Below, piece after piece: positions 7,815 through 60,963 of a stretch of DNA of 64,000 nt (position 1 is the stretch's first letter; each line of letters starts with the position of its first letter). The stretch spans positions 1,568,001 through 1,632,000 of the forward strand of contig CAWCRS010000007.1 of assembly GCA_963798085.1 (NCBI GenBank), given 5' to 3'. Source of the DNA: an uncultured Gemmatimonadales bacterium (lineage in GTDB: Bacteria; Gemmatimonadota; Gemmatimonadetes; Longimicrobiales; RSA9). A program made the translations under genes and the position numbers. Under the pieces are notes generated by a model. That model saw nothing but the letters and a program-made list of their open reading frames with translations. It did not search any database and was not told where the DNA came from.

Positions 7815-10807
7815 AGCGAGCGGCGTGTTTGCTCGGTTTGTGCGCCGCGCTGTACGGCAGCGCCGCAGCGCAGACCGTGCCCTTCGGCAAGAACAAGATC
7901 CAGTACCAGGACTTCGACTGGCGCATTATCAGCAGCGCCCACGTCGAGGTCTATTACTATCCACAGGAAGAGGCCGTGGCCCGCCGCGCGCTCGCCTATG
8001 CGGAGGAGGACTACGCCTTCCTCGAGCGCAAGTTCCGCCACCACCCGTTCCAGCGTATTCCACTTGTCATCTACTGCTCCGACCAGGATTTCGAGCAGAC
8101 CAATGTGCTGCCCGGCTTTATTCCCGAAGGCGTGCTGGGTTTCACCGAATACCTGAAGCGACGCGTCACGCTGCCGTTCCGCGGCGACTACGAACAGTTC
8201 CGGCACACGCTGCGCCACGAGCTGGTGCACGCATTCCAGCTCTCCAAACTGGGCGAGGCGCAGACGCTCTATCCGCGGCAGCGTGGTGAATCGCCGCAGA
8301 ACATTCACTGGTGGACGGAGGGGCTCGCGGAGTTCTGGTCCAGCGAGCAGGACAGCGAAGATGAGATGTACGTGCGCGATCTGGTGGTGCGTGGCAGGCT
8401 GCCCACCATCCGCCAGTTCGATCGCATGTACACGTTTTTTTCCTATCCACTGGGCGCGGAACTGCACAAATACCTGAGCCAGCGCTTCGGTGAGCAGTAC
8501 ATCGTCCGCATGTACGAGGAGTACCGCCGCTACGATTCGTTCGAGAAGGCGCTCGAAGGCATCCTGGGCGAGGATCTCGACAAGCTGTCGCGGGAGTGGA
8601 AGTACGCGCTCGAGCAGCGCTTCATGCCCGCGTACGCCGAGCGCCCGCCGCTCGATATCGGCAGCCAGCGCGTGGTCTGGAAGGGAGGCGCCAACTTCAA
8701 GCCGGTGATCTGGCGGGAACCGGGATCAGACACCGACTGGCTGTTCTTCCTCTCGCCGCGCGATGGCTACACCGATCTCTACCGCACGCGGCCCGATGCG
8801 GGCGAGCGCGATGTCCAGACCATCGTGAAGGGCGAGCGCTCCGCCGAGTTCGAATCGTTCCACGCCTACGAATCCGGCATCACGATCAGTCATGGCGGCG
8901 TCATCGCATTCGTATCCCGGTTCCTCGATCGCGATGCGCTGCTCCTGTGGAATATCAAGGAGCGCCGGGTCGTGGGACGGTACCAGTGGGATGATCTGGT
9001 CGGGCTGAAATCGCCATCCTGGGATCCCGCGGGGAAACGCGTCGTGTTCGAGGGCCTCTCCACCAGCGGCTTCTCCGATCTCTACACGTACGACTTTTCC
9101 ACGCAGCAGCGCGTCGCCCTGACGCACGACCTCTACCGTGATGAGGATCCCGACTGGTCGCCCGACGGTGCCTCCATTGTGTTCTCGTCCGATCGCACAA
9201 CGACCGGTGCGGTCGGGAACAGCAACCTGATCGTGCTCAATGCACGCAGCGGGGCGCTGCGCTTCCTGACCTACGGGCCCTGGCACGATCGCTCGCCCCG
9301 CTGGGCGCCCGACGGAAACCATGTCGCGTTCACATCCGACCGCGGCGGCACCTTCGACGTCTACGAGGTCAATGCGGCCGGCAACGGCCGGCGCCTCACA
9401 GCCATGACCGGCGGCGCCTTCGATCCCGAATGGACCACCGATCAGAAGAGCATTGTGTACGGCGGCTTCCAGGACGCGTCGTTCGCCATCTACCGCGCCG
9501 ACGTGAAGCCGGACAGCCTGGCGCCGCGCCTCGCGCTCGGTGCCGCGCCCTCGCCGGCCAATGGTAACACGCTGTTGGCGGATGCTGACGCGGCGCAGCA
9601 GGACGGCGAGCCCGTGACCGGCTGGCGCTGGGACCGCGGTGGGCAGGCGGGTGTGGCGGCCAGCACACTGCAGCCCCGCCGCTACACCACGTGGAATCGC
9701 TTCACGCTCGATTTTGCCGCCGCCAATGCGCTCGTGGCCCCCGGACTGGGTGCCGCGCAGGGCGCCCAATTCCTGCTCACCGACCTGCTCGGCGACCACA
9801 TGATCTTCGGTGGCTTCTCCGCCGCGCAGTTCAACGGACTGAGCAACCTGGTCGACAACTTCAGTGGCAACCTGCTGTACCTGAACCTGAAGAACCGGCT
9901 CAATTACGGCGCCGGCCTGTTCCGCTTCAAGGGTCGCTTCCGCAATGTCACGCTTAACCTCTACGACGAGGAGTCCTTCGGCGGCTATTTCCTTGCCAGC
10001 TACCCCTTCTCCCGCTTCCGGCGCGTCGAATTCCAGCTGGGTATGGAGCGCAGCAACCGGGAGGACCTGCACGATGCCTTCGAAGACGGCATCTTCGGAA
10101 CCACGACGCGCATTGACTCGCTCGATCTCACCCGCCGCGGTTTCCTGACAACGAATTACGTGTCGTACGTCAAGGACAACACGCTCTGGCTGCCCACCGG
10201 GCCGGTCAATGGCGAACGCTACAATCTCACACTGGGCCTGATCAGCTGCTTCACGTGCACATCGCCCAGTCCCGTGACCGGCGAGCCGGTGCGGCGCTCC
10301 GCCGTTGGGGAGAGCTTCATCATCACAGGCGATTATCGACGGTATTTCCGGACCTCGCTGCACAGTGCCTACGCCGTGCGCGCGTTCGCATTCTGGAGCG
10401 CAGGCGCGATTCCCGGCCGCACGGTACTGGGTGGCACGAGCATGCTGCGCGGCTACCCGCGCTTTTCGCTGGCGGGTTCGCGGGTCTGGCTGATCAACCA
10501 GGAATGGCGCTTCCCGCTGCTCGAGGATCTGAGCCTCGGTTTCCCCTTCGGCACACTGCGCATGCCGGGCGTGCAGGGCGCGCTTTTCACCGACCTCGGC
10601 ACCAGCTGGCTGGAATCACAGAAAGGAGCGGGTGGGTCCTGGGGCAGCTACGGCGTCGGCTTCCGCTCATCGCTCGGGCCTCCGCTCGTGCTCCGGCTCG
10701 ACGTGGGTCGGCGCTACCGCATCGGTTCAACGCCTCCCGTGATCTTCGGCGGCGGCCACGGCTTCAACGATACCTTCGTCGACTTCTTCTTCGGCTTCAA
10801 CTACTGA
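7811..10807 (+). CDS. Omp85-family outer-membrane protein with N-terminal HExxH peptidase-like domain and PD40/TolB-like propeller
   Basis: Signal peptide; HELVH...TEGLAE; PDWSPDG-type repeats; LRGY and C-terminal aromatic beta-signal FFFGFNY. Confidence 0.8.
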   Translation: MKRAACLLGLCAALYGSAAAQTVPFGKNKIQYQDFDWRIISSAHVEVYYYPQEEAVARRALAYAEEDYAFLERKFRHHPFQRIPLVIYCSDQDFEQTNVLPGFIPEGVLGFTEYLKRRVTLPFRGDYEQFRHTLRHELVHAFQLSKLGEAQTLYPRQRGESPQNIHWWTEGLAEFWSSEQDSEDEMYVRDLVVRGRLPTIRQFDRMYTFFSYPLGAELHKYLSQRFGEQYIVRMYEEYRRYDSFEKALEGILGEDLDKLSREWKYALEQRFMPAYAERPPLDIGSQRVVWKGGANFKPVIWREPGSDTDWLFFLSPRDGYTDLYRTRPDAGERDVQTIVKGERSAEFESFHAYESGITISHGGVIAFVSRFLDRDALLLWNIKERRVVGRYQWDDLVGLKSPSWDPAGKRVVFEGLSTSGFSDLYTYDFSTQQRVALTHDLYRDEDPDWSPDGASIVFSSDRTTTGAVGNSNLIVLNARSGALRFLTYGPWHDRSPRWAPDGNHVAFTSDRGGTFDVYEVNAAGNGRRLTAMTGGAFDPEWTTDQKSIVYGGFQDASFAIYRADVKPDSLAPRLALGAAPSPANGNTLLADADAAQQDGEPVTGWRWDRGGQAGVAASTLQPRRYTTWNRFTLDFAAANALVAPGLGAAQGAQFLLTDLLGDHMIFGGFSAAQFNGLSNLVDNFSGNLLYLNLKNRLNYGAGLFRFKGRFRNVTLNLYDEESFGGYFLASYPFSRFRRVEFQLGMERSNREDLHDAFEDGIFGTTTRIDSLDLTRRGFLTTNYVSYVKDNTLWLPTGPVNGERYNLTLGLISCFTCTSPSPVTGEPVRRSAVGESFIITGDYRRYFRTSLHSAYAVRAFAFWSAGAIPGRTVLGGTSMLRGYPRFSLAGSRVWLINQEWRFPLLEDLSLGFPFGTLRMPGVQGALFTDLGTSWLESQKGAGGSWGSYGVGFRSSLGPPLVLRLDVGRRYRIGSTPPVIFGGGHGFNDTFVDFFFGFNY

Positions 10808-10904
10808 GCCTGAACGCACACGCACTGTCTCGATCAGGAGCCGGATCCGACGGAATCACGAACGGCAAGGACCGCATGGTGCGTGGTACGGGTAGTTTTC
10901 CCCC

Positions 10905-26465: not shown

Positions 26466-28625
26466 GTGACGGGGCTCACCGAGCGCATGGTAGCGTGGCT
26501 GCGCGATGAGGCGACGCATCCGGTGCGCCTTGCCGAGCTCGCCCGCGCACTGCGCGTGCAGCCCTCCGAACGAAAACCTTTCCGCCGCGCGCTTCGCCGC
26601 CTGATCACGGAAGGTGAAGTCTACCGCGTGCACGGCGATCGCTATGCCGTGCCCGGCCGCCTGCGTCTGATCAGCGGACTGCTCCGGGCGACGCGTCGCA
26701 ACTTCGGCATCGTCACGTCAGACGAGACCGGCGAGGAGCTGGTGATTCCGGCGAGCGCGCTCGCTGGTGCCGTGGGCGGCGATCGGGTAGTGGCGCGGGT
26801 GGAAGGCACAGCCCGGCGAGGCCGCACGGAGGGGCGCGTGATCCGCGTGCTCGAGCGCGGCCGCCAGACTGTGGTCGGACGCTTTCAGCCAGGTCGCACG
26901 CGCGGCAGCAGCATTGGTTTCGTCGTACCGGAGATGCCGGCGCTGATCCCACACGTCATCGTGGCTGCCGAGGACGCGGCCGGCGCGGTGGCAGGCGACA
27001 TCGTGCAGGTACGGGTGACCGACTGGGGCGAGGAGGGCCGCGCACCCACCGGCGCGGTGCAGCGTGTACTCGGTGCGTCCGACGCGCCCGGTGTCGATAT
27101 CCTCGCCATCGCGCTCGGTCACGAGCTGCCGATGGAATTCCCGGAACCTGCACTGGAACTGGCACAACGACTGCGCGAGCGCGGCATTCGGCCGCGTGAT
27201 CTGAAGGACCGCGAGGATCTGCGCGCATTGCACGTCGTCACAATCGATCCAGTCAATGCCAGGGATCACGACGACGCACTTTCCGTCGTTCCGCTCGGCG
27301 CCGGGACCTTCGAAGTGGGCGTACATATCGCCAATGTTTCGTACTACGTGCGCACGAATTCGCCGCTGGACAAGGAAGCGCTGCAGCGAGGCACGAGCGT
27401 GTATCTGGTGGACCGCGCGATCCCCATGCTGCCGGAGGCACTGTCATCGGACCTGTGCTCGCTGGTGCCCGATCAGGACCGCCTCACGCTGAGCGTCTTT
27501 CTCACGGTGAACACGGAAGGCCAGGTGCGCTCGATGCGGCTGGCGCAGGGCGTGATCCGCAGTCGCCATCGCCTGACTTACGATACCGTGCAGGCCGTGT
27601 TCGATGGACGGGATCGCATCGATGCCGAAACGGATCCGGTGCTGGAGCAGCTGCGCACGGTCAGCCGGCAGCTGCGGGCGCGGCGCGTCGCGCGCGGCAG
27701 CCTGGATTTCGATCTGCCGGAAGCGCGTGTCTTCCTGGACGAATCCGGCGTGCCTGTGGATGTGCAGCGAGCCGAGCGCTGGGAAAGCCACCGTCTGGTG
27801 GAAGAGCTGATGCTGGCGGCGAACGAGGCGATTGGCGGTCAGGCGACGAAGTCCGGGTACCCGTTCATCTACCGTGTTCACGAAGCGCCGGACGAAAGCC
27901 GGATGTTGCAGTTGACCGTGTATGCGCGCGCGCTCGGCTTCCAGGTGCCATTCCGGGGGCAACCACAACCCGCCCAGCTGCAGCGGCTGCTGGAGCAGAA
28001 GCCCGGCACGCCCGCCGCGCAACTGCTCGCGAGTCTGACGCTGCGCTCCATGAAGCAGGCGCGCTATCATGAGGCGGACGTCGGCCATTTCGGCCTGGCG
28101 ACGCACGACTACACGCATTTCACTTCTCCCATCCGGCGCTATCCGGATCTGCTGGTGCACCGGCTGGTGGCGGCGCATCATCTGGGCAGGGGCAGCGCCG
28201 AGCGCTACGAGGGCGAACGGGTGCGCGCGATTGCGCGCACGTCGAGTGAGCGCGAGCGCGTGGCCGCGGCGGCGGAACGCGACAGCATCGCGCTCAAGAA
28301 GGCGCGCTTCATGGCGGGCCATCTGGGTGCGACGTTCGAGGGCACCGTCAGCGACGTGCGTTCCTTCGGGGTCTTCGTTCGTCTCGATACGTACTTCATC
28401 GAAGGGCTGATCCATGTCAGCTCCCTCGGCGACGATTACTATGTCTGGGTCGAGGAACGCTTCCTGCTGACAGGGGAGCACACTGGACGCCGCTTCCAGG
28501 TGGGCCAGCGGTTGCAGGTGCAGGTGTCGAACGTCGATATGGAAGAGCGACGTATCGACTTCGTGCTCGCCCGAGAGCGCGATGCACTTCGCCGCGGCAG
28601 GCCACGGAGGAAGCGCCGGCAATGA
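26466..28625 (+). CDS. rnr: Ribonuclease R
   Basis: HTH, CSDs, TIDP..ARDHDDA, YTHFTSPIRRYPDL, S1 domain and basic tail. Confidence 0.95.
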   Translation: MTGLTERMVAWLRDEATHPVRLAELARALRVQPSERKPFRRALRRLITEGEVYRVHGDRYAVPGRLRLISGLLRATRRNFGIVTSDETGEELVIPASALAGAVGGDRVVARVEGTARRGRTEGRVIRVLERGRQTVVGRFQPGRTRGSSIGFVVPEMPALIPHVIVAAEDAAGAVAGDIVQVRVTDWGEEGRAPTGAVQRVLGASDAPGVDILAIALGHELPMEFPEPALELAQRLRERGIRPRDLKDREDLRALHVVTIDPVNARDHDDALSVVPLGAGTFEVGVHIANVSYYVRTNSPLDKEALQRGTSVYLVDRAIPMLPEALSSDLCSLVPDQDRLTLSVFLTVNTEGQVRSMRLAQGVIRSRHRLTYDTVQAVFDGRDRIDAETDPVLEQLRTVSRQLRARRVARGSLDFDLPEARVFLDESGVPVDVQRAERWESHRLVEELMLAANEAIGGQATKSGYPFIYRVHEAPDESRMLQLTVYARALGFQVPFRGQPQPAQLQRLLEQKPGTPAAQLLASLTLRSMKQARYHEADVGHFGLATHDYTHFTSPIRRYPDLLVHRLVAAHHLGRGSAERYEGERVRAIARTSSERERVAAAAERDSIALKKARFMAGHLGATFEGTVSDVRSFGVFVRLDTYFIEGLIHVSSLGDDYYVWVEERFLLTGEHTGRRFQVGQRLQVQVSNVDMEERRIDFVLARERDALRRGRPRRKRRQ

Positions 28626-28704: not shown

Positions 28705-29716
28705 ATGGGCGCTCGAAAGGTACTGGTCTACTTCTCTCCGGGAGGCCGTCCCATTCCGCCCGTGCTCCTGGCGTTTGCCCAGCTCCAGGGCCTGGACATG
28801 ATGGCGCTGAACGACCCGGAACAGGTCGAAGCGCTGGTCAACCGGTCCCTGCCCGCCGGCGTCATCCTCGACACCATGAGCGAAGACGCGGCGCTGACGA
28901 TCTGCCGCAAGTTGAAGCGCGACCCGTTCACGGCCATTGTGCCCGTGGCGCTCGTGGCGCAGCCGGGCCGCGAAGATCTGGTGCTGAGCGGCCTGGAGGC
29001 GGGGGCCGACGAAGTGCTCACGGGCGGAATGGTGGAGCGCGAGCAGATTCTGCGGCTGCGCATGGTGCTGCACCGCGCGGACCGCGATGTCAGCGTGCAC
29101 CCCACTACGCGACTGCCCGGGACCATTCAGATCGAGCGCGACATCGCCGAGCGGATGAAGCGCGGCGGCATGTTCGCGGTCTGCTACGCGGACCTCGATC
29201 ATTTCAAGGAATTCAACGACCGGTACGGCTACAACGAAGGGGATCGCGTAATCCGCGTCCTCGCACGCATACTTCGGGATGTGGTGCGCGGTCATTCCCC
29301 GGAAGGATTCGTGGGCCATATCGGAGGCGACGATTTCATTTTCAATGTGCCACTCGAGCGCATGCGCATTCTGCTGCGAAGAGATCATCGAGATCTTCGA
29401 CGAGATCATTCCGTTCCAGTACACGGAAGAAGACCGCCGCGCGGGCTACTTCCTGGGGCGTGATCGTCGCGGCAACATCGTGTGGGTGCCGCTCATGACG
29501 CTGTCCATCGGGGTCGTGACGAACGAGCACCGGCGCTTCGAGCACACCGCCCGTGTGAGCGAGCTGGCCACCGAGATGAAGACGTTCGCCAAGAAGCTTC
29601 CCGGATCCGTGTACGCAGTCGACCGTCGTACCACGACCGGGGGTACATACTACGGCAGGAACATCAGCTCAACCGGCGAACTCGAAGCCTTCGAAGCGAC
29701 CACCGACCTCCCATGA
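28705..29716 (+). CDS. Receiver-like + GGDEF-family protein, frameshifted near 29369
   Basis: REC-like GLEAGADEV; PTTRLPG, ADLDHFKEFNDRYG and HIGGDDF; continues in the next frame (PLMTLSIGVV...EMKTFAK). Confidence 0.8.
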
Positions 29717-34733: not shown

Positions 34734-35514
34734 GCGACCCGAGGCGGTGCAGCGGCCCGCGGCCATCCCGGAGGAGCCGGCGGTGATGCCCATCGCAATG
34801 GAGGCGGCTAAAGAGGCGCGCGTCGAACGCCCGATCCTTGAGGGAAAGAACCTGAGCCGGGTCTACATTGAGGAAGATGGCAGTGAACTGACCGTTCTGG
34901 ACGGGGTAGAGGTCGCAGTCGCAAGGGCGGAGGCGGTGGCGATCGTGGGAGCGAGCGGCGCCGGAAAATCCACGCTCCTGCACCTGCTTGGTTGTCTGGA
35001 CCGGCCCACGGCCGGTGAAGTGATCCTCGACGGCCGCCCCGTCTCGGCGCTCAACGACATGGAACTGGCGGCGGTTCGCAACCGCCGCATTGGCTTCGTT
35101 TTCCAGTTCCACCACCTATTGCGTGAATTCAGTGCAATCGAGAATGTCACGATGCCGATGCTGATTGCCGGCATGGAGCCGGGCGAGGCGAGCGAGCGAG
35201 CCGCCGAACTGCTGGGGCAGGTGGGTCTGGCCCCTCGCCTGAAGCACAAACCCAACCAGCTCAGCGGCGGTGAACAGCAGCGCGTGGCCGTGGCGCGCGC
35301 GCTGGCCAACCGTCCAGCCGTGGTGGTGGCCGATGAGCCGAGCGGGAATCTGGACACGCACACGAGCGAACAGTTGCACGATCTGCTCTTCCGCATGCGC
35401 GAGCAGCACGGCGTGGCCCTGCTGGTGGCCACGCACAATCGGGAACTCTCCGATCGAGCGGACCGGATCCTGCTCCTGAAGGAGTCCCGTTTGCAGAGCT
35501 TCTACCCGGCGTAG
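34726..35514 (+). CDS. lolD: Lipoprotein-releasing ABC transporter ATPase
   Basis: [27 protein letters not shown] and ADEPSGNLD. Confidence 0.9.
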
Positions 35515-39629: not shown

Positions 39630-42091
39630 CGCCTCACTCTCTCCCCGGCCGTATTCGCCGGAAGTCACGGGCCGCCGCGTTCAGGGCGGCCCTGACCATT
39701 TTGGCGAGTCCGCTCGCCCTGCGCGCCCAGAACGTCAGCAGTCCGGCACAACAGACTGTTGGCGTGATCGAGATTCAGGGCAATTCGCGCGTTCCGGAAT
39801 CCAGCATTCTCGGCGTGCTATCGATCCGCGCGGGGGATCGCGTCCAGTATCCCGATCTGGCGAAGGCGTACTCCCGCCTGTGGGGCACGGGTCAGTTCGA
39901 TGACGTGCAGCTGCTGGCGGTGAGCGATTCCAACGCCACAGCGGACACGCCCATCACGCTGCGGGTTGTCCTCAAGGAGCGGCCCATCCTGAACGCGGTC
40001 GATTTCCGCGGCCTGGAGAATGTCAAAGGCACGACGATCCGCGACACGGTGGGACTGAAGTCGGGCCAGCCTCTGGATCCGGCGAAGATCACGGCCACGG
40101 AGGCAATGACGCGGAAGCTGCTCGCGAGCAAGGGCTTCTACGCGAAGAAGGTCAGCCACGAGCTGCAGGATGTGCCCGATCATCCGGGCGAGAAGCGGCT
40201 GGTCTTCGATGTCGAGGAAGGCCTGCGCGTAGCCATCGCGGACGTCGAGTTCGAGGGTAACCACGTGTTTACCTCGGACCAGCTGAGCGGCGTGCTGGAC
40301 ACCAAGGCGGAAGGCTTTTTCTGGTTCCGCAGCGGCGTGTTCGATGAAGATCGCTTCCTGCAGGATCTGCGCGATCAGCTGCCTTCCCACTATGCGGAGA
40401 GCGGGTACCTGGATTTCGCGGTTGTGGGCGACACGCTGATCGTGGATCCGGAGACCGGGAAGGCCAGGCTGGTGGTGAAAGTCGAGGAAGGCCCGCAGTA
40501 TCGCCTGGCGAGCTTCGACATCCAGGGCAATCGTCGCTTCTCGACGGACGAGCTGCATCGCTACTTCGACCAGGAGCGCAGCGGACTGCTGGTGAGCCTG
40601 GGCATCGCGAGCAGCGGCGAAAAGCCGGTCGAGGGCAAGACGCCGTTCGATGCGGTGGCGTTTGACAAGGCAACGAGCGATGTGACGCAGCTCTATCGCA
40701 ACCAGGGCTATCTGTACGCGCAGGTGGAGCCGGTCATTGACCGGGTGCCGGCGGACAGTTCCAGCGGGGGCCCATCGGTTCGCGTCGCGTGGCAGATCGA
40801 AGAAGGCGCACCCGCGTTCATCAAGGAAGTGCGCATTGTCGGCAACACCTACACGCACGAGAGCGTGATTCGCGGGGCACTGTCACTGCTGCCGGGCGAC
40901 GTGTACAGCGACGATCGCATCCTGCAGAGCTATCAGCGCATTTCCGCACTCGGCTTTTTCGAGACGCCACTACCCACGCCACAGATCGTGCCGGACGAGC
41001 AGTCCGGCAATGTGACGGTGACGTTCGAAGTGAAGGAAAAGCAGACGGGCTCGGTGAATTTCGGAACCGCGCTGGGCGGAGTGACGGGCGTGTCCGGCTT
41101 TCTGGGCTACGACCAGCCCAATCTGTTCGGGCGGGCGAAGAACGGACACCTGCGCTGGGAATTCGGCAAGTACTCGAACAACTTCGAGGCCGCCTACAGC
41201 GACCCCTCCATCGGCGGGTCCCTGTACAGCGGCTCGCTCTCCCTGTTCAGCTCGCGCGATCGCTTCTTCACGTTCTCGGAAGGCCAGCGCCGGCGCACGG
41301 GTGCGGGGGTGCAGGTGGGATTCCCGTTCTTCTCGGACCCGCTGCGCACGCGTCTCTCTGTGGGGTACTCGCTCTCGCGCACGACCTACGAGAATTTCGA
41401 CACGGAGACGCAGTCCTCGCTCTTCTCGCTGCCGCCGGGCGTGCAGAGCACAGTGACGATCTCGCTGGACCGCTCCACGACGGATCATCCGCTGTTTCCA
41501 ACCGTAGGCACGCGCGCCTCGGTCGCGGCGGCGCTCAACGGCGGGATCCTGCAGGGCGATGGCACTTTCCAGAAGTACACGGTGTCCGGCGACTGGTACG
41601 TACCCGTGGGCCGGCTGGGCGGCAGTGCGCCGGGCTCTCGGCCGATCCGTCTGACCCTGGGACTTTCGGCGGACGCCGGAGCCCTTTTCGGCGATGCCAG
41701 CCGTTTCCCCTTCGACCGCTTCTGGATGGGTGGCGTGCAGTTCGGCCGCCCTCTTCGCGGGTACGACGAAACGACGATCACCCCGAATGGGTATATCAGT
41801 CGAAACGCGCCGGGGATCGCGCTGGACGAGCGGTTTGGCGATGCCTACATGCGCCTGAGCGCGCAGTACGCCATCCGCTTCAATGACAACATATCGGTCG
41901 GGCTCTTCTACGACGCCGGCAACGTCTGGCGGAAGCCCGCCGACATGGATCCAACGCGCCTGCTGCGGGGTGCGGGTATCGGCCTCACGCTGGTAACGCC
42001 GTTCGGCCCGCTCGGCTTGGATTACGCGTATGGATTCGACAAGATTCCGCCCGGATGGCAACTGCACTTCAAGTTCGGGAACTTCTTCTGA
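39626..42091 (+). CDS. bamA: Outer membrane protein assembly factor BamA
   Basis: POTRA repeats, [19 protein letters not shown] and C-terminal Phe. Confidence 0.92.
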
Positions 42092-43717: not shown

Positions 43718-45003
43718 TGAGCCAACGCCAGCAGACGATCGCCGCTGATGCCAGCATCGAAGGTGTGGGCCTGCACACCGGCGAGGCAGTGCGCGTGCAC
43801 TTCTGCCCGGCTGCCGTGGATGCGGGCCTCCGCTTCCGGCGCGTCGACATCCCGGGCGAGCCTCAGGTAGGTGCGCAGCTGGACAACGTGGCCTCGACCG
43901 ACCGCGGCACAACGCTCTCAGCGGGGGAAGCGCGCGTGCAAACGGTGGAACACCTGCTGGCCGCGGTTTCTGCGCTCGATATCGACAACCTGCTGATCGA
44001 CGTGACAGGCCCTGAAGTGCCCATCCTGGATGGCAGCTTCCGCCCGTTCTTCGACGTTCTGCAGGAAGCGGGCATGCGCGAGCAGGAGCGGGCGGCGCGC
44101 GAGCTGGTGGTGGCCGAACCGGTCACTGCGGCGGCGGCGGGTGGTGCGTCCTACGTGGCGACGCCGGCGAAGGGCTACCGCGTATCCGCCACGATCGAAT
44201 TCGACCATCCGCTCATCCGGCGGCAGTTCGGCTCATTCGACGTGACTGCACAGGATTTCCAGACCGAACTGTCGGAGGCGCGAACATTCGGTTTCCGGCA
44301 GGAGGCGGAAGCGCTGCGCGCGCGCGGGCTGGCGCGCGGCGCCACGCTGGACAATGCCGTGATTCTGGATGAGAACGGCCTGGCATCGGGCGAGCTTCGC
44401 TTCCCCGACGAATTCGTACGCCACAAGATCGGCGACGTGGTCGGTGATCTGGCGCTGCTGGGCCGGCGCGTACGGGCGCACATTGTTGCGGACCGTCCGA
44501 GTCACGCCGGTAACATCGAGTTGGCGAAGCAGCTGGCGGCGCATGCGAACCGCAATGGCGCCGCCGCACCCATCATCAATGCGCAGCGCATCATGCAGCA
44601 CCTGCCGCACCGCTATCCGATGCTGCTCGTGGACCGGATCATCGAGTTCGAGCCGGGCAAGCGCATTGTCGGCATCAAGAACGTGACCATCAACGAACCG
44701 TTCTTCCAGGGGCACTATCCGGGGCATCCGGTCATGCCGGGTGTCCTCATCATCGAAGCAATGGCGCAGGTGGGCGGACTGCTGCTGCTGGACGCGGTCG
44801 AAAACCCGGAAGAGAAGGTCGTCTATTTCATGTCGCTGGACAACGTAAAGTGGCGGCGCCCCATCACACCGGGTGACCAGATCCGGTTCGAGCTGGAAAT
44901 GGTGCAGATGCGCACGCACGTGTGTCGCATGCGCGGGGTGGGACTGGTCGACGGACACGTGGCCGCGGAAGCCGAAATGATGGCGCGGATCGTGGACCGG
45001 TAG
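43717..45003 (+). CDS. lpxC/fabZ: Bifunctional LpxC/FabZ
   Basis: GVGLHTG, TVEHLL and HKIGD..GD, then LPHRYPMLLVD and GHYPG.PVMPGV. Confidence 0.95.
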   Translation: MSQRQQTIAADASIEGVGLHTGEAVRVHFCPAAVDAGLRFRRVDIPGEPQVGAQLDNVASTDRGTTLSAGEARVQTVEHLLAAVSALDIDNLLIDVTGPEVPILDGSFRPFFDVLQEAGMREQERAARELVVAEPVTAAAAGGASYVATPAKGYRVSATIEFDHPLIRRQFGSFDVTAQDFQTELSEARTFGFRQEAEALRARGLARGATLDNAVILDENGLASGELRFPDEFVRHKIGDVVGDLALLGRRVRAHIVADRPSHAGNIELAKQLAAHANRNGAAAPIINAQRIMQHLPHRYPMLLVDRIIEFEPGKRIVGIKNVTINEPFFQGHYPGHPVMPGVLIIEAMAQVGGLLLLDAVENPEEKVVYFMSLDNVKWRRPITPGDQIRFELEMVQMRTHVCRMRGVGLVDGHVAAEAEMMARIVDR

Positions 45004-49720: not shown

Positions 49721-51345
49721 AGCAGGTCTCTGCTGACACCGTGGTTATCGGCAGCGGGATTGCCGGGCTGACGTACGCGCTGAAGGCTGCGCGTCTGGGC
49801 AGTGTCGCGATCGTGACCAAGAAACAGCGAGCGGACTCTAACACGAATTACGCGCAGGGCGGCGTAGCGGCAGTGTTCGATCCTGGCGATTCCACGGTCC
49901 TGCACGCGCGCGACACACTGGTCGCAGGGTGCGGCCTCTGCCACTCGCAGGCGGTGCGCGCGCTGGTGCGCGACGGGCCGCAGCGCGTGCGCGAGCTGGC
50001 CGACCTCGGGGTGGCGTTCACGCGTGCCGGCGAGGCGTTCTCGCTGGGCCGGGAAGGTGGACACACGCGCCGGCGCATCGTGCACGCAGGCGACCTGACG
50101 GGCCGCGAGATCGAGCGCGCGCTGCTGCAGGCGCTCTCGGAGCAGCCCGCGGTGGCCATGTACGAGGACCACATGGCCATCGATCTGGTGGTAGGCCACG
50201 AACAGGTTTCCGGGCGACGACGCTGCGCCGGGTTGCTCGCGCTCGACCATCGTCATGGTGAGTTCGTCGCGTTTCAGGCGGCGGTGGTCATGATCGCGTC
50301 GGGCGGGATGGGGCAGGTCTACCTGCACACTACGAACCCGGACATTGCGACAGGGGATGGTGTGGCCATGGCGAAGCGCGCGGGCGCGGCCGTGGCCAAC
50401 CTCGAGTTCGTGCAGTTCCACCCGACCGCGCTGTATCCGGCAGGCGAACGGGCGTTCCTGATCAGCGAAGCCGTGCGCGGCGAGGGCGCGATTCTGCGGC
50501 GCATCGATGGCTCGCCCCTGATGGAGGGCGTGCACCCGCTGGGCTCACTGGCGCCGCGCAATGTGGTGGCGCGCGCCATCGATCTGGAACTCAAGAACTC
50601 GGGCGCGGAATGGGTGCTGCTCGATCTCTCGAGCATAACACGCGATGCCCTGGAGCGGCGCTTCCCCGGCATTGCAGCGGAATGCGAACAGCGCGGTTTT
50701 CGTCTGCCGGCGGATCCTCTGCCGGTCGTGCCCGCCGCGCATTACGCCTGCGGCGGCATCCTTACGGATGCAGCGGGCCGCACATCGATCGCCGGTCTGT
50801 ATGCGACGGGCGAGGCTGCCTGTACTGGCGTGCATGGTGCCAATCGCCTAGCATCCAACTCGTTGCTGGAAGCGGTGGTGTACAGCCATCGGGCGGCGCT
50901 GGAACTGCCCTCGGAGCTGGCGCGCGGTGCGCTGCGGCCGGTGTCCGCGAGTTTCGAAATGCCGGTCACACGCGCGGATGTTGCGGCCCCGCAGAAGGAA
51001 GTCGGCGGCAGTGCGCGCTTTGAGGCGCAGTCGGGCGGACCGCTGCGGGACGCGATCCGGCGGGTGATGTGGGAAGATGCGGGCATTGTGCGCAGCTCGG
51101 CTCGCCTGGCCGAAGCGACGCGGGAAATCGACCGCATCCGCAGCCGCTTCGTCGCCCGTTTCGAAAACGGCTGGCTGGATAGCGATGCAATCGAAGTACG
51201 CAATCTGCTGGACACCGCCGCGCTGATCCTGACGTGTGCGCGGCGCAGGCGGGAGAGTCGCGGGCTGCATCACAACCTGGATCATCCGTACCGGGACAAC
51301 GAGAAGCAGCTGCGCGACACGATCCTGGCCGGTGACGAACGATAA
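49717..51345 (+). CDS. nadB: L-aspartate oxidase
   Basis: GSGIAGL, YAQGG, EGGH, QFHPT, SEAVRGEG, HGANRLASNSL and ESRGLH. Confidence 0.95.
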   Translation: MKQVSADTVVIGSGIAGLTYALKAARLGSVAIVTKKQRADSNTNYAQGGVAAVFDPGDSTVLHARDTLVAGCGLCHSQAVRALVRDGPQRVRELADLGVAFTRAGEAFSLGREGGHTRRRIVHAGDLTGREIERALLQALSEQPAVAMYEDHMAIDLVVGHEQVSGRRRCAGLLALDHRHGEFVAFQAAVVMIASGGMGQVYLHTTNPDIATGDGVAMAKRAGAAVANLEFVQFHPTALYPAGERAFLISEAVRGEGAILRRIDGSPLMEGVHPLGSLAPRNVVARAIDLELKNSGAEWVLLDLSSITRDALERRFPGIAAECEQRGFRLPADPLPVVPAAHYACGGILTDAAGRTSIAGLYATGEAACTGVHGANRLASNSLLEAVVYSHRAALELPSELARGALRPVSASFEMPVTRADVAAPQKEVGGSARFEAQSGGPLRDAIRRVMWEDAGIVRSSARLAEATREIDRIRSRFVARFENGWLDSDAIEVRNLLDTAALILTCARRRRESRGLHHNLDHPYRDNEKQLRDTILAGDER

Positions 51346-55269: not shown

Positions 55270-56920
55270 GGCCACGGCCAGCGGGACGAAGGAGAACGCG
55301 GCCCGCACGCGCGCCCGCTCGGGACGCTCCGCCCGCCTCGTGGGCGCGGGTATTCTGCTCAGTCGTGTGGCCGGCTTCGTGCGCGAACGCGCACTGGCGC
55401 ACTTCCTCGGAACATCGCTGTTCGCATCCGCATTCCGCTCCGCACTGCGCATTCCCAACATCATCCAGAACCTGCTGGGCGAAGGCACGCTGAGCGCGTC
55501 CTTCATTCCCGTGTACGCGCGACTGCTGGAGCGCGGAGAAGAGGAAGAGGCGGGCCGGCTGGCAGGCGCGGTGTTCGCGCTGCTGCTGGCGATTGCCGGG
55601 CTGTTCGCGATCCTGGGCATCACGCTGGCGGGCGCGATCGTGCACATCACGTCAACGGGATTCCACGGCGAGATCTACGAAGTGAGCGTGCGCTGCACGC
55701 GCATTCTCTTTCCCATGACAGGCATGCTCGTGCTGTCGGCATGGGCGCTGGGCATCCTGAACAGCCATCGGCGCTTCTTCGTGTCGTACTCGGCGCCGGT
55801 ATTGTGGAACGTGGCCATCATCGCGGCCGTGTTCGTGTTCGCAGCGTACTACACGGGCTCGGATCTGGTGGCTGCGGTTTCATGGGGCGCCCTGGCGGGT
55901 GGCGTGCTGCAGTTCCTGGTGCAGCTGCCGTGGGTGGTCAGGCTGGATCCGTTCGTTCGCCTGCACTGGGACGTGGCGTCTGCCAATGTGCGGCAGGTGA
56001 TGCGCAACGCTGGGCCGGTACTGGTGGGCCGCGGCGTGGTGCAGCTGGTTGCCTTCCTCGACCTCTTCCTGGCCTCGTTCCTGTTCCTGGGCGCAGTGGC
56101 CGTGCTGGGTTACGCGCAGACGATCTTCCTGCTGCCCGTGAGCCTGTTCGGCATGTCCGTGGCGGCGGCGGAGCTGCCCGAGATGTCGCGCCACGGCGAT
56201 GAGCGCCGGGAAGCACTGCGCGCGCGCATCGAGGTGGGCATCCAGCGCATTGCCTTCCTGGTAGTGCCCGCCGAGGTCGGGTTCATCCTGCTGGGCGACG
56301 TGGTGGTGGGCGCGCTCTACCAAACAGGACATTTCACGCGCCTGGACACAATGCTGGTGCACCTGGTGCTGGCAGGATACTCCGTAGGCCTGGTGGCGAC
56401 CACGAGCACCCGACTCTACTCGTCCGCCTTCTACGCGCTCAACGACACACGCACGCCGGCGCGCATGGCGATCCTGCGTGTGATCCTGGCGTCCGCGCTG
56501 GGCGCACTCCTGATGCTGGTGCTCGAGCGGTTCGCCGTGACGCAGCCGTACGCCATTGTCCGCAACCTCGGCGACATCGAGCACACGCGACCGCTGGGCG
56601 CCGCGGGCCTGGCCCTGGGCGCCGGCATCAGCGGCTGGGTGGAATGGACGCTGCTGCGCCGGCGCATCCAGCAGCGTGTCGGCGAGCTGAATGCCGGCCG
56701 GCACGCGCTGCCCAGGCTGGCCCTTGCCGCGCTGCTCCCGGCCATCCTGCTGCGCGCCACTCTCGTCTTCACCCCGACACTTCCCCCGCTGTTCACCGCC
56801 GCCATTGTCCTGCCTCTCTTCGGCGCGACGTACCTGCTGCTGGCAGCATGGATGGGCGTCGCCCAGGCTCGTCGCACTCTGCTCCGTCTCACGAACCGCG
56901 GAGAGCGCGGAAGGCACTGA
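55253..56920 (+). CDS. murJ: Lipid II flippase MurJ/MviN
   Basis: SRVAGFVRE, RIPN..QNLLGEGTLSASFIP and FYALNDTRTP. Confidence 0.93.
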   Translation: MTESTEATASGTKENAARTRARSGRSARLVGAGILLSRVAGFVRERALAHFLGTSLFASAFRSALRIPNIIQNLLGEGTLSASFIPVYARLLERGEEEEAGRLAGAVFALLLAIAGLFAILGITLAGAIVHITSTGFHGEIYEVSVRCTRILFPMTGMLVLSAWALGILNSHRRFFVSYSAPVLWNVAIIAAVFVFAAYYTGSDLVAAVSWGALAGGVLQFLVQLPWVVRLDPFVRLHWDVASANVRQVMRNAGPVLVGRGVVQLVAFLDLFLASFLFLGAVAVLGYAQTIFLLPVSLFGMSVAAAELPEMSRHGDERREALRARIEVGIQRIAFLVVPAEVGFILLGDVVVGALYQTGHFTRLDTMLVHLVLAGYSVGLVATTSTRLYSSAFYALNDTRTPARMAILRVILASALGALLMLVLERFAVTQPYAIVRNLGDIEHTRPLGAAGLALGAGISGWVEWTLLRRRIQQRVGELNAGRHALPRLALAALLPAILLRATLVFTPTLPPLFTAAIVLPLFGATYLLLAAWMGVAQARRTLLRLTNRGERGRH

Positions 56921-57133
56921 GCACCGAGGTGGCAGAAAGGATCGGGAGAATATTCAACCACGGAACCAACAGAAACAGGGTGCGCATGACTTGATCCTGC
57001 AGGGCAGGATAACAGCAGATTAACGAATTTCTGACTTGACGGATCCGAGGCGTCGATTCAACGGGGAATGGCCGAACGGATCGGGTTTCGAGGCAACCGC
57101 GACCTCGGGATTCTTCGATAGAGGACACTCCGC

Positions 57134-57336
57134 CTCTCCCCACCCCTGAACGGGTGCCCTTGCCCGCGTCCGACCCCTGAACGCACAGGGCTTTCCCCTC
57201 ACCCGCTGAAACGCCACCAAGGGGGTTCGCCCGCCCGTAATGGCTTGTCAGGTCGCGCCGCTGTTGGGCGAGGGCAAGGGAAAGGGGTCGGACGCGGACG
57301 CGGGCACAGGTTGAGGGGAAGGGATGGGGGGAGGGG
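57134..57336. repeat. Imperfect ~200-nt palindrome with C-rich and G-rich arms in the murJ-uvrC intergenic region
   Basis: CCGCGTCCGACCCCT (57164-57178) is the exact reverse complement of 57283-57297; 57134-57147 pairs with 57320-57333. Confidence 0.7.
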
Positions 57337-57691
57337 AAGCAAGCAGATCGGCCCTGCTCATTCCCCGAACGCCACAGCAGCGCTGCGGCCGACAGAATCC
57401 GGTCAACGCGGCTGCCGGAATGGATTTCAAGAGAAGACCAGACAGAGAGACGACCGGCCGGCAACGAGGCTGGAGAATCGAGCGCCCGGGACGGATCGGT
57501 CGTCGCGGGTCCGGATCGGGATCCCATTGGGTAGAATGGGGTGCGGTCTGCTGGCTCGCGTGCCGGGAGCGGAACGCGCTGTCGCCCGCGCAGGCAATGC
57601 GCATCCTTTGCCGTTCGCGGCGGCCGAGCCCGGACGCCTGCGGTCTCAGCGCGTTCTGCGCCCGCTGCGGTGAAAGGTACACGGGGTACAG

Positions 57692-59530
57692 GTGAGTGTG
57701 ATTGACCTGGAGAGGAAGCTGCGACATCTGCCGGCGCGGCCGGGCGTGTATCTGTTCAAGGACCGCCGGGGCGAGTTCCTCTACATTGGCAAGGCGAACT
57801 CGCTGCGGGCGAGGGTGCGCAGTCATTTCGCGACGGATGGCGCGGGTTCCATCAAGAACCACGAGATGCTGCGGCGGGTTGCGGACATCGACTCGATTGT
57901 GGTGGGCTCGGAGGCGGAGGCTCTGCTGCTGGAGGCGAATCTCATCAAGGCGCACCGGCCGCGCTTCAACATCCGGCTGCGTGACGACAAGAAGTACCCG
58001 TACATCAAGGTGACGCTGGCGGAGCCGTTTCCGCGGGTCTATGTGACGCGACGGCTGGACAATGATGGCAGCCGGTACTTCGGGCCGTACACGGATGTGG
58101 GCGCGATGCGGCACGCGCTGGAGGTCATCAAGCGGGCGTACACGGTGCGCAGCTGCCGCTACGACCTGCCCACGGAGGCGCCGGCGAGGCCGTGTCTGGA
58201 CTACCACATCGGGCGCTGCCAGGCGCCGTGCGTCGGGCTGCAGACCATGGAGTCGTACCGGGCCATGGTGGACGAAGTACTGGATGTGTTAGGCGGCCAC
58301 ACGGACGAGGTGCGAAGCCGCGTCGAGCGGGAAATGCACGAGGCGGCGGGCTCTCTCGACTTCGAGCGCGCGGCCCAGCTGCGCGACGTGATCACCGGCC
58401 TCAATGCGATCGAGCGGCGGCAGCGCGCGCTGGACATGCGCGGCCGCGACATCGACGTGATCGGTGCGGCCCGCGACGGCGACCGGGCCTGCGTCATTCT
58501 GCTGCGCATCCGTGGCGGCAAGCTGCTGGGTCGCGAGCTGGACTTCTTCTCCAACCTGGGCGACGAACCGGATGGTGCGCTGCTGTCGACGGCGGCCATG
58601 CGCCTGTATTTCGGGCGCGGCGAGACGGGCATGGCGGACCTGCCGAGGGAATTGCTGTTTCCGGGTGAGTTCGATGATCGCGAAGCATTCGCGGAGCTGC
58701 TTGTGAAACAGGCGGGACGCGGGATCAATGTGCACGTGCCGCAACGGGGCGAGAAGGTGCAGCTCATCGAACTGGCCAACCAGAACGCGCGCCATCTGCT
58801 GGAAGAGCGTGCCGTGCTGTCGCGCGATGCGACCGGGCGCGCCGACGATACGCTCTACGACCTGCAGGAAGCACTGGACATGAAGGTGGTGCCTCGCCTG
58901 GCGGTGTGCTTCGACATCTCGCACACGCAGGGCGATGAAGTCGTGGGCAGCGCCATCGCGTTCCGCAACGGCGAGCCGGACAAGGGCGAGTATCGCAAGT
59001 TCAGGATCAAGGGCGATTGGGGCAACGACGACTTCGCGTCGATGGAGGAAGTGGTAGGCCGCTACCTGCGGCGGCGCATGACGGAGGGCCAGCCACTGCC
59101 GGAGCTGATCCTGATCGATGGCGGCCGCGGCCAGCTGGCGGCCGCGGTGCGCGCGGCGGATACGTGCGATGCGCGCGACATCGCGTTTGCCAGTCTGGCC
59201 AAGCGCGAAGAGGATGTCTACCTTCCGGGCCGCCCGGAGCCGCTGCGGCTGGCAAGGACGAGCCGCGCGCTCCGGCTGCTGCAGCGCATGCGCGATGAGG
59301 CGCACCGCTTTGCCCACAGCTTCAATCGCAATCGCCGGCAGAAAAAAGCCTTGAGCAGCGAGCTGAACGAGATACCGGGCATCGGGCCGGCAAGACGTCA
59401 GGCACTGCTGGCACGGTTCGGCAGTGTGCGCGCACTGCGCGGCGCGAGCGTCGAGGAGATTGCCGGGCTGCGAGGCTTCTCGACCACGCTCGCCACGCAC
59501 GTCGCCACGCATCTCAAGAAGGGTTCGTGA
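57692..59530 (+). CDS. uvrC: Excinuclease ABC subunit C
   Basis: GIY-YIG (PGVY..YIGKA), UVR domain, FDISH, IDGGRGQ, RDEAHRFA and HhH. Confidence 0.96.
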   Translation: MSVIDLERKLRHLPARPGVYLFKDRRGEFLYIGKANSLRARVRSHFATDGAGSIKNHEMLRRVADIDSIVVGSEAEALLLEANLIKAHRPRFNIRLRDDKKYPYIKVTLAEPFPRVYVTRRLDNDGSRYFGPYTDVGAMRHALEVIKRAYTVRSCRYDLPTEAPARPCLDYHIGRCQAPCVGLQTMESYRAMVDEVLDVLGGHTDEVRSRVEREMHEAAGSLDFERAAQLRDVITGLNAIERRQRALDMRGRDIDVIGAARDGDRACVILLRIRGGKLLGRELDFFSNLGDEPDGALLSTAAMRLYFGRGETGMADLPRELLFPGEFDDREAFAELLVKQAGRGINVHVPQRGEKVQLIELANQNARHLLEERAVLSRDATGRADDTLYDLQEALDMKVVPRLAVCFDISHTQGDEVVGSAIAFRNGEPDKGEYRKFRIKGDWGNDDFASMEEVVGRYLRRRMTEGQPLPELILIDGGRGQLAAAVRAADTCDARDIAFASLAKREEDVYLPGRPEPLRLARTSRALRLLQRMRDEAHRFAHSFNRNRRQKKALSSELNEIPGIGPARRQALLARFGSVRALRGASVEEIAGLRGFSTTLATHVATHLKKGS

Positions 59531-60963
59531 CCCGCACGCGCTTCGCTCCCAGCCCGACGGGGTCCCTGCACATCGGCAATGTGCGCATCGCCGTGCTCAA
59601 CTGGCTGCTGGCCCGCCATGATAACGGCGAGTTTCTGCTGCGCATCGAAGACACCAATGTGGAGCGCAACGTGCCCGGCGCGGAGGCGACGATCTTCCAG
59701 GACCTGCGCTGGCTGGGCCTCGACTGGGATGAGGGTCCGGCGTGGGAAGGACGTCCCGCGGAAAGTCGCTACGGTCCGTTCCGTCAGTCCGAACGCGGCG
59801 CCATCTACCACGATGCCGCGGAGCGGCTGCACGCGGCAGGCCACGCATTCCCCTGCTTCTGCACCGATGCGGAGCTGGAAGCCATGCGCGCTGCCGCGCT
59901 GGCGCGGGTTGAGTCGTTCCGCTACGACGGGCGCTGCGCTCGACTCAGCGCTGCCGAGCGCGCCGCGCGGCAGGCACAGGGACTCAAGCCGGCGCTGCGG
60001 TTCCGCGTGCCCGAGGGCGAGACCGTACTGGTGCGTGACGCCATTCGCGGCGAGATCCGCTTCGCCACGGATGAGGTAAGCGATTTCGTGCTGCTGCGCG
60101 CCGATGGCCGGCCCACCTACAACTTTGCCGTGGTCGTGGACGACATTGCCATGGCGATCACGCACGTGGTGCGGGGATCGGGGCATCTGTCGAATACGCC
60201 GCGGCAGGTGCTGCTGTACCGCGCGTTCGGCGCGCCCGAGCCCGTGTTCGCACACGTGCCCACCGTGCTGGGGCCGGACCGCCAGAAGCTTTCCAAGCGC
60301 CATGGTGCGCAGGCCCTGAGCGATTACCGCGCGCAGGGCTATCATCCGGACGCGCTGGTCAATTACCTGTCGCTGCTGTCGTGGTCGAGCCCGAGTGGCG
60401 ATGAGGTGCTGGAGCGCGACCGGCTGGTGCGCGAGATCTCACTGGAGCGCATGGGCGTCGCCGATGTGGTCTACGACCCGGACAAGCTGCGCTGGCTCTC
60501 GGCCCGCCACATCGAGCGCATGCCGCTGCCGGCGCTGGTGCAGGCGGTGCAGCCCTTCCTGGACGCGCGCAGCCGGCAGATACCCAACGAGCTGTTAGAC
60601 GATGCCGTGGGCGCCGTGCGCAGCCACCTGTCGACGTTCGCCGAGGTCAACGAACACCTGGCGTCCCTCTTCCCGCCGGAAGATGGGGCGCAGGAAATTG
60701 CGCTGGACGACGCCGGGCAGGCCGTGGTGCGGGCGGCGGCCACCGTGCTCGCGGATGTCAGCGCATGGCAGCGGACGCCGCTGGAGGCCGCGCTCAGGAC
60801 GATCGGGGAGCGTGCGGGCGTGCGCGGCCGCGCACTGTACACGCCCCTGCGCCTGGCGCTCACCGGACAGGAACACGGTCCGCCGTTCTGGGCGGTGCTG
60901 GAAGTGCAGGGCAGGGAACCCGTGCTGGAGCGCCTGCGGCAGGCGGCGGCAGGTGGACGATGA
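59527..60963 (+). CDS. gltX: Glutamate--tRNA ligase
   Basis: RFAPSPTG.LHIG, LRIEDT, KLSKRHG and C-terminal anticodon-binding domain. Confidence 0.93.
   Translation: MTRTRFAPSPTGSLHIGNVRIAVLNWLLARHDNGEFLLRIEDTNVERNVPGAEATIFQDLRWLGLDWDEGPAWEGRPAESRYGPFRQSERGAIYHDAAERLHAAGHAFPCFCTDAELEAMRAAALARVESFRYDGRCARLSAAERAARQAQGLKPALRFRVPEGETVLVRDAIRGEIRFATDEVSDFVLLRADGRPTYNFAVVVDDIAMAITHVVRGSGHLSNTPRQVLLYRAFGAPEPVFAHVPTVLGPDRQKLSKRHGAQALSDYRAQGYHPDALVNYLSLLSWSSPSGDEVLERDRLVREISLERMGVADVVYDPDKLRWLSARHIERMPLPALVQAVQPFLDARSRQIPNELLDDAVGAVRSHLSTFAEVNEHLASLFPPEDGAQEIALDDAGQAVVRAAATVLADVSAWQRTPLEAALRTIGERAGVRGRALYTPLRLALTGQEHGPPFWAVLEVQGREPVLERLRQAAAGGR

What the first reader, a model, noticed from the sequence alone, without database searches (positions are those of the whole stretch)
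10208..59656. Window-wide CGATG>CAATG substitutions: footprint of a probable GATG/CATC DNA modification
Seen: conserved positions repeatedly read CAATG where the family consensus needs CGATG. Strong cases are 16S GTAAAC[A]ATG (15738; E. coli G818), 23S CACCTC[A]ATGTCGG (19321; G2502), RNase R HIA[N]V (27333; HIADV), NadB LAPR[N]VV (50560; LAPRD) and GltX RIEDT[N] (59656; RIEDTD). Weaker cases are 27255, 26336 (SAINA vs SA.DA), 44578 and 10208. Both rRNA and essential proteins are hit in one 5-mer context, while many other CGATG sites remain intact. Established: modified bases cause motif-specific G>A / C>T consensus errors in nanopore data. Inference: the organism modifies the asymmetric motif GATG/CATC (4mC/5mC, 6mA, or a rarer mark such as 7-deazaguanine or phosphorothioate) using an enzyme encoded outside this window. 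A real motif-directed deamination process is a less likely alternative.
Basis: partly seen in the sequence, partly recalled or inferred. Interest (0 to 1): 0.75.

Follow-up and report, generated by a model that had tools for sequence, protein, structure and literature searches.

The report
Sequencing errors expose family-wide DNA methylation
The apparent Asp-to-Asn changes in essential genes are almost certainly sequencing errors, not biology, and they likely mark an adenine methylation at GATG that a conserved, unstudied methyltransferase of this bacterial family is predicted to write.

Summary
The changes are assembly errors. All nine sites read CAATG; relatives or other organisms have G at eight, and 10208 could not be tested. 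Near-identical contigs of a public run read G/C at 5 of 10 CAATG/CATTG sites covered. The excess follows the arbitrary file orientation: it lies on the written strand in 12 of 12 contigs, whatever the gene direction or GC skew, which mutation cannot explain. At least 2,400 sites (15% of written-strand CGATG) are wrong. Substitutions need the 5' C; +1 insertions (GAATG) widen the motif to GATG or VGATG. The same footprint appears in 10 of 16 long-contig genomes that carry a solitary D12-class adenine methyltransferase resembling the N-terminal half of FokI-type methylases, and in 0 of 19 other genomes. C5, N4/type III, DndC and DpdA enzymes are not shared by footprint genomes. A second conserved N6 methyltransferase remains a rival. 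Mark and enzyme are inferred; no raw signal was available and platforms are unknown. The scan reached the same reading before on other windows of this genome; the orientation test and cross-genome test were run here.

The parts
15737..15741 (+). CAATG in 16S rRNA; A at 15738 is a probable miscalled G
   Evidence: 11 of 11 relatives have G
19320..19324 (+). CAATG in 23S rRNA; A at 19321 is a probable miscalled G
   Evidence: all contigs of X1-X3 counted there read G; the A form occurs in only 10 other genomes of 185,579
20770..20774 (+). CAATG read CGATG in a near-identical contig of run X1
   Evidence: (A>G at 20771)
21525..21529 (+). CAATG read CGATG in run X1
   Evidence: A>G at 21526
22901..22905 (+). 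CAATG read CGATG in run X1
   Evidence: A>G at 22902
23543..23547 (+). CAATG read CGATG in run X1
   Evidence: A>G at 23544; two relatives also have G
24945..24950 (+). GGAATG at a +1 frameshift against the ortholog; probable inserted A in GGATG
26335..26339 (+). CAATG, SAINA against SAIDA
   Evidence: one relative
27254..27258 (+). CAATG in RNase R (IDPVNARDH; relatives have D)
27332..27336 (+). CAATG in RNase R, HIANV against HIADV
29366..29371 (+). CATTCT with one T more than the X1 contig (AGATG on the - strand); frameshift in a GGDEF gene
   Evidence: table 4
34866..34870 (-). CATTG read CATCG in run X1 (motif on the - strand)
   Evidence: (T>C at 34869)
41008..41012 (+). further probable error site (GNV against GDV in three relatives)
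44577..44581 (+). CAATG, PIINA against D in three relatives
50559..50563 (+). CAATG in the NadB-type flavoprotein, LAPRNVV against LAPRD
59655..59659 (+). CAATG in GltX, IEDTN against IEDTD
10207..10211 (+).
   Evidence: present; no ortholog alignment covers it

Best explanation
The CAATG sites are almost certainly consensus errors of a long-read, likely nanopore, assembly, and they likely arise from N6-methyladenine in G(m6A)TG, which a solitary D12-class methyltransferase outside the window (G000:C5:177724-178788) is predicted to write on one strand. Inferred steps: reads of the methylated strand miscall the G before the modified A as A after a C, or gain an extra A (GAATG) in other contexts; reads of the other strand are right; the polisher resolves the split mostly in favour of the strand written in the file. 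About 15% of written-strand CGATG and few opposite-strand sites end up wrong. The enzyme has no nuclease partner, so the mark likely serves housekeeping or regulation rather than restriction. Step odds: artefact 0.97; 6mA on the GATG strand 0.8; this enzyme 0.65-0.7.
For: Near-identical contigs of run X1: 5 of 7 listed substitutions restore CGATG/CATCG, and none of 15 intact CGATG/CATCG sites covered is listed as changed. File orientation: CAATG share 0.397 on + against 0.292 on -, in 12 of 12 contigs and 52 of 56 100-kb bins; odds ratio 1.64 (z 22) after stratifying by gene direction and frame, five control words 0.95-1.09; ortholog changes D>N 48/267 and S>L 8/26 on +, 10/224 and 1/44 on -, background 29/883. 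One repeat copy has five CAATG/CATTG where three other copies are intact. 14 of 56 +1 frameshifts lie at GAATG/CATTC, 1.06 expected. Footprint (z>=3) in 10 of 16 genomes of <=50 contigs carrying the D12 ortholog, 0 of 19 others, and in 0 of 64 fragmented family genomes, 54 of which carry the gene. G046, the only long-contig family genome without the ortholog, is frameshift-rich (5 in 41 kb) but shows no footprint. The enzyme passes PF02086, keeps motif I and DPPY, and is 32% identical to the N-terminal half of a methylase beside a FokI-type nuclease; that half of M.FokI recognises GGATG (PMC3985630). Published R10.4.1 errors share RA/TY, include CRATGTC and CARATG, and lie in reads of the G-bearing strand (PMC11610573; PMC11610603).
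Against: No raw reads or signal: mark, modified base and platform are all inferred; X1's library is not on record, its depth is 2.4-5.3 and it may be the same sample. Six of 16 long-contig carriers show no footprint. Platforms of the 19 negative genomes are unknown, 10 were screened for the ortholog only at E<=1e-70 (G119 shows that this cut can miss it), two carry weak homologs, and kin are not independent. A second N6 methyltransferase (1,122 aa) is also in all footprint genomes; only G046 separates the two. In MhoVII the D12 domain methylates CATC, not GATG (PMC12898733). 32% identity does not fix specificity. No insertion was seen at TGATG (0 of 14), so the motif may be VGATG. I found no paper describing the file-orientation bias; its cause is my inference.
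Confidence: 0.64

Rival explanations
1. The errors are artefacts of 6mA, but the conserved 1,122-aa Eco57I/MmeI-like methyltransferase (G000:C1:262758-266126) writes the mark, alone or on the CATC strand as partner of the D12 enzyme.
For: Eco57I domain over cut-off, with NPPW and motif I. Present in all 9 other footprint genomes at 39-55% identity; only weak partial matches, or none, in three footprint-free genomes of another family. REBASE's supposed CATC enzymes are solitary gamma-class proteins (PMC12898733).
Against: Also present in G046 (48%), which is frameshift-rich but has no footprint. No tie to a GATG-type specificity was found. Published data put the error on the G-bearing strand.
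Confidence: 0.22
2. The errors are artefacts of another mark: 4mC or 5mC on CATCG, a phosphorothioate, 7-deazaguanine, or an unknown chemistry.
For: G000 encodes a Dcm-like C5 enzyme and a type III Mod; CATCG holds a CpG; dnd and dpd systems cause nanopore errors (10.64898/2026.03.20.713089).
Against: PF00145 in 0 of 9 other footprint genomes; PF01555 missing in 6 of 9, among them a one-contig genome; DndC and DpdA in 0 of 5; EcoRI-type enzyme only in G000 of 5. Ssp was not searched.
Confidence: 0.08
3. The basecaller or polisher errs at CGATG for sequence reasons alone, with no modification.
For: The bias follows file orientation, so software shapes it. Eight of the 10 other genomes with the 23S error are not Gemmatimonadales.
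Against: The 23S error is in only 10 of 185,579 genomes; G046 and 18 other genomes lack the footprint; published G>A errors vanish in amplified DNA (PMC11610603).
Confidence: 0.04
4. The changes are real: a motif-directed deamination or hypermutation process converts CGATG to CAATG in the chromosome.
For: No frameshift-free read-level proof exists; X1 could be a sister strain without the process.
Against: A real process cannot know which strand is written in the file (12 of 12 contigs; both signs of GC skew). Catalytic and universally conserved positions are hit. Fragmented assemblies of the family never show it (0 of 64).
Confidence: 0.02

Closest known systems
Modification-induced R/Y consensus errors of R10.4.1 nanopore assemblies (PMC11610573, section 5 and passages; PMC11610603, passages; 10.1101/2024.07.12.603236, passages)
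   Same: G>A/C>T at a short motif with RA/TY core; only some sites wrong; similar words listed (CRATGTC in Citrobacter freundii, CARATG in Acinetobacter junii); errors at a motif with G before 6mA (GAAG6mAC).
   Different: About 15% of sites against about 2% at GAAGAC; +1 insertions at the same core; the bias to the written strand was not described in the passages read; seen across a whole uncultured family.
M.FokI N-terminal domain and FokI-type type IIS methylases (PMC3985630, two passages)
   Same: D12/alpha-class N6-adenine methyltransferase; full-length match to the N-terminal half (32%); target shares GATG.
   Different: Single domain, no second-strand domain, no neighbouring nuclease; the target would be GATG/VGATG rather than GGATG.
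MhoVII of Mycoplasma hominis (PMC12898733, passages, section 2.3, first part of the discussion)
   Same: 6mA at non-palindromic GATG/CATC.
   Different: There GATG is methylated by a beta-class (YhdJ) domain and CATC by the D12 domain, fused and beside a nuclease; here no nuclease, and 6 of 9 other footprint genomes have no beta-class enzyme.
Persistent orphan methyltransferases (Dam, CcrM; CamA as an asymmetric case; recalled, not from a call)
   Same: Kept across a clade among housekeeping genes, no nuclease, motif not depleted.
   Different: A 4-5 base non-palindromic site, probably marked on one strand; no function tested.

Membership tests
Modification-induced nanopore consensus errors | G>A / C>T changes bound to a short motif with RA/TY core | tested here: met
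Modification-induced nanopore consensus errors | Absent from modification-blind data of the same organism | tested here: met
   X1 contigs read G/C at 5 of 10 sites; 0 of 64 fragmented family assemblies show it. Caveat: platforms not on record.
Modification-induced nanopore consensus errors | Only a fraction of motif sites is wrong | tested here: met
   at least 15% of + strand CGATG; 13,802 + strand CGATG remain
Modification-induced nanopore consensus errors | Mismatch in raw reads of one strand only; altered current signal | not testable with these tools
   no raw reads of this assembly were served
D12-class (alpha) N6-adenine methyltransferases, FokI N-terminal type | PF02086 over cut-off with SAM-binding motif I and DPPY | tested here: met
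   94 bits against cut-off 22; D30/F32/G34 and D225-P-P-Y228 present
D12-class (alpha) N6-adenine methyltransferases, FokI N-terminal type | Homology to the N-terminal half of FokI-type methylases | tested here: met
   32% over 336 aa, E 7e-64, to a 644-aa methylase beside a FokI-type nuclease; M.FokI itself was not aligned
D12-class (alpha) N6-adenine methyltransferases, FokI N-terminal type | Methylates the adenine of GATG | not testable with these tools
   only co-occurrence with the footprint
Type IIS restriction-modification (FokI, MhoVII) | Cognate nuclease and second-strand methylase at the locus | tested here: not met
   neighbours in G000 are an acyltransferase, DUF423 and an amidohydrolase; 22 of 25 neighbour ORFs of 14 relatives hit non-nuclease families, 3 hit nothing (1.5 kb each side); GATG not depleted (1.03)
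Persistent orphan methyltransferases | Conserved across a clade without a nuclease | tested here: met
   61 of 72 family genomes
Persistent orphan methyltransferases | Role in replication, repair or transcription | not testable with these tools
   no data
C5 or N4/beta-class/type III methylation | Enzyme present in every footprint genome | tested here: not met
   PF00145 0 of 9; PF01555 3 of 9
Dnd phosphorothioate / Dpd 7-deazaguanine | dndC or dpdA present | tested here: not met
   0 of 5 genomes each
Ssp phosphorothioate | sspBCD present | not tested

The most novel reading that the evidence does not exclude
A family of uncultured Gemmatimonadota keeps a FokI-derived single-domain enzyme as a housekeeping methyltransferase that marks every GATG on one strand only: a permanent, strand-specific epigenetic signal at a 4-base asymmetric site, unlike Dam or CcrM, possibly paired with a second orphan enzyme for CATC. 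The forward-versus-reverse word count used here would also read methylation motifs out of deposited nanopore assemblies without raw data and tie them to enzymes across thousands of genomes.
Probability: 0.45. Interest if true: 0.6.

Novelty: new variant of a known kind. Interest (0 to 1): 0.38.

Why it matters
Practically: at least 2,400 substitutions and many frameshifts in this assembly are false, so 'altered catalytic residue' and 'pseudogene' calls at CAATG, CATTG, GAATG or CATTC in this genome and nine others should be distrusted. Biologically: the errors point to a conserved orphan adenine methyltransferase with a predicted GATG target, a site that PMC12898733 says was first validated in 2026, inside a restriction system. 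One cloning experiment tests it. Methodologically: the dependence on file orientation is a reference-free test that separates such artefacts from real mutation. The artefact class itself is well known, which limits the score.

Tried and rejected
Markov enrichment of CAATG: also in relatives. Unstratified nucleotide comparison with orthologs: swamped by synonymous change; CGATG ranked 14th of 182 G>A contexts. In the codon-normalised scan C[G>A]ATG ranked sixth, behind transversion contexts of a kind also seen in the swapped control, and was absent from the swapped top 15. Longer or bipartite motif: none within 14 bases. Internal rRNA comparison: only one operon. Clustering of errors along contigs: only slightly above control words, no plus/minus anticorrelation beyond controls. 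TCAATG alone as a marker: gave outliers without the enzyme (G019 309/108, G027 718/492, G230 629/515; reverse in G046 121/223) that vanished with CCAATG; repeats such as CRISPR arrays are my untested guess. G228, G020, G134 and G159 (milder TCAATG excess) were not retested. Unstratified scans of 140-530 kb samples: dominated by gene direction. Insertions give no genome-wide strand bias (GAATG 4,822 against CATTC 4,755). Runs X2 and X3 did not cover the organism usefully. The 5mC site CATCGATG (10.1101/2024.07.15.603628, passages) is too long to fit. Premature stops at CAT-CGA were too rare to test in orthologs. No fold or complex job was run.
Full report
Setting. The window is G000:C7:1568001-1632000 in a 6.23-Mb, 12-contig, 90%-complete genome. 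Named homologs of one of its proteins come from Longimicrobiales, so the organism is likely a Gemmatimonadota member of that group. The platform is not given. Long contigs, and 69 frameshifts in 184,135 aligned codons, 56 of them +1, suggest nanopore.

Observation. All nine sites read CAATG. Relatives or other organisms have G at eight; 10208 has no aligned ortholog. Against three relatives, conserved Asp reads Asn at 32 of 236 C-GAT-G codons and 23 of 570 other GAT codons (p 4e-6); with the roles swapped it is 1 of 185. In the larger set (536 alignments) GGATG gives 10/287 and TGATG 1/104, both background, so the substitution needs the 5' C. No longer motif appears within 14 bases.

Artefact test 1, independent data. 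Run X1 holds short, low-depth contigs nearly identical to the window. The ten pieces listed (2,952 bases; the tables are cut, more exist) cover 10 CAATG/CATTG sites. X1 reads G or C at five: 20771, 21526, 22902, 23544, 34869. These are 5 of the 7 listed substitutions; two further differences were counted but not placed by the tool. None of the 15 intact CGATG/CATCG sites covered is listed as changed. The one listed indel is an extra T in CATTCT at 29369. X1's library is not on record and it may be the source sample.

Artefact test 2, file orientation. CAATG makes up 0.397 of CAATG+CGATG on the written strand and 0.292 on the other, while three control words are symmetric. The excess holds in 12 of 12 contigs and 52 of 56 100-kb bins, with either sign of GC skew. 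In genes on the written strand the Asn share at C|xAT|G is 0.389, in genes on the other strand 0.266; the synonymous ATT share at C|ATx|G swaps the other way, 0.289 against 0.399. Stratified by gene direction and frame the odds ratio is 1.64, z 22; controls give 0.95-1.09. Ortholog changes agree: 48/267 D>N and 8/26 S>L on the written strand, 10/224 and 1/44 on the other, background 29/883. Contig orientation is taken to be arbitrary, and no mutational process can track it. The excess sets a floor of about 2,400 false bases, 15% of written-strand CGATG. One repeat copy differs from three others at five motif sites.

Motif. 14 of 56 lie at GAATG/CATTC against 1.06 expected: 7 AGATG, 4 CGATG, 3 GGATG, 0 TGATG. 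The modified word is therefore GATG or VGATG, and the 5' base decides the type of error. Published R10.4.1 ambiguities share RA/TY, include CRATGTC and CARATG, and have the false base in reads of the G-bearing strand (PMC11610573 section 5; PMC11610603 passages). Errors also occur at GAAG6mAC (10.1101/2024.07.12.603236 passages; these did not say which base is miscalled). This points, by inference, to G(m6A)TG.

Across genomes. Whole-genome forward and reverse counts of TCAATG and TCGATG in all 73 family genomes gave positive log odds in 8 of 8 long-contig carriers of the D12 gene (6 with z>=3) and |z|<2.5 in all 64 fragmented genomes, 54 of them carriers. TCAATG also gave outliers without the gene, so I recounted 36 hand-picked genomes with CCAATG/CCGATG. 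The footprint (z>=3) is in 10 of 16 carriers of 50 contigs or fewer, 0 of 19 genomes without a strong match, and not in the fragmented carrier G001. Samples of 100-460 kb of coding sequence stratified by gene direction agree: odds ratios 1.34-4.83 in six carriers, 0.81 in G046. Limits: platforms unknown, kin not independent, set not random, six carriers negative. The exact 23S error occurs in 10 other genomes of 185,579, two of them Gemmatimonadales; these may overlap my handles and are not counted as independent.

Enzyme. G000 encodes a Dcm-like C5 enzyme with Vsr, a type III Mod, a split HsdM, an EcoRI-type enzyme, a 1,122-aa Eco57I-like enzyme and a 354-aa D12 enzyme. C5 enzymes are in 0 of the 9 other footprint genomes, PF01555 enzymes in 3 of 9; DndC and DpdA in 0 of 5 tested, the EcoRI type only in G000. 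HsdM was not searched in relatives; a type I site would be bipartite, which one search did not show. Two candidates are in all ten. The D12 enzyme is in 61 of 72 family genomes. In a phylum sample at E<=1e-70 it was found in two further families at 11/11 and 8/40 (one unpublished genome left out) and in one single-genome family, and not found in families of 98 and 26 genomes; that cut missed G119. It sits among housekeeping genes without a nuclease, has intact motifs, and matches the N-terminal half of FokI-type methylases, the half that in M.FokI recognises GGATG (PMC3985630). The 1,122-aa enzyme is also in G046, which lacks the D12 ortholog (its D12 hit is a different, 293-aa protein), has 5 frameshifts in 41 kb and shows no footprint. 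That single genome tips the balance to D12. Against it, the D12 domain of MhoVII marks CATC (PMC12898733).

Comparison and novelty. The error class is known. It works like the GATG-strand half of a type IIS methylase, but fails membership of type IIS systems: no nuclease, and GATG is not depleted. It fits a persistent orphan methyltransferase with an asymmetric site. Four searches listed no paper on a methylation motif of this group; one hit read in passages (PMC13340088) had none. REBASE and supplements were not seen. Two earlier agents reached the same reading on other windows of this genome; their notes are not independent support.

Verdict. Artefact 0.97; 6mA at GATG 0.8; D12 enzyme about 0.65. 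Interest 0.38: the substitutions are not biology, but they expose a testable, family-wide methylation.

Noticed in passing
G000:C1:262758-266126 (L200:4758-8126): A second conserved N6 methyltransferase (1,122 aa, Eco57I/MmeI-like), found at 39-56% identity in all 11 genomes searched of two families; target unknown; neighbours not examined.
   Followed up: partly
G000:C11 (L070): An 8.6-kb contig of lower GC carrying an HTH-fused Dcm-like C5 methyltransferase followed by Vsr; its end shares 1.6 kb at 98.5% with C8 near the type III locus.
   Followed up: partly
G000:C3:931841-932825 (L072, L073): Type I HsdM matches in two pieces in different open frames; may be another assembly frameshift.
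   Followed up: no
whole genome G000: GAGCTC (0.33), AAATTT (0.39) and AAGCTT (0.44) are the most depleted hexamers. GAGCA/TGCTC appears at 8 of 53 +1 frameshifts against 1.8 expected: possibly a second, weaker error motif.
   Followed up: partly
window 16137 and 15148: 16S positions with A where 12 of 12 and 13 of 13 relatives have G, outside CGATG; real or another error.
   Followed up: no
G019, G027, G230, G046, G257, G118: Strong forward/reverse imbalance of TCAATG but not CCAATG; a repeat family such as a CRISPR array is the likely cause, untested.
   Followed up: partly
L110-L120: The same 23S G>A occurs in Terriglobia, Paenibacillus, Planctomycetota, Actinomycetes, Chloroflexia, Desulfobacterium (two copies), Mycoplasma and Cytophagales records: candidates for GATG-type methylation elsewhere, or true variants.
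   Followed up: no
window 28762-29463: GGDEF gene cut short by the +1 error at 29369; the domain match stops at profile position 89 of 161.
   Followed up: yes
window 14130-19923: Four tRNA genes followed by the only rRNA operon in the assembly.
   Followed up: no
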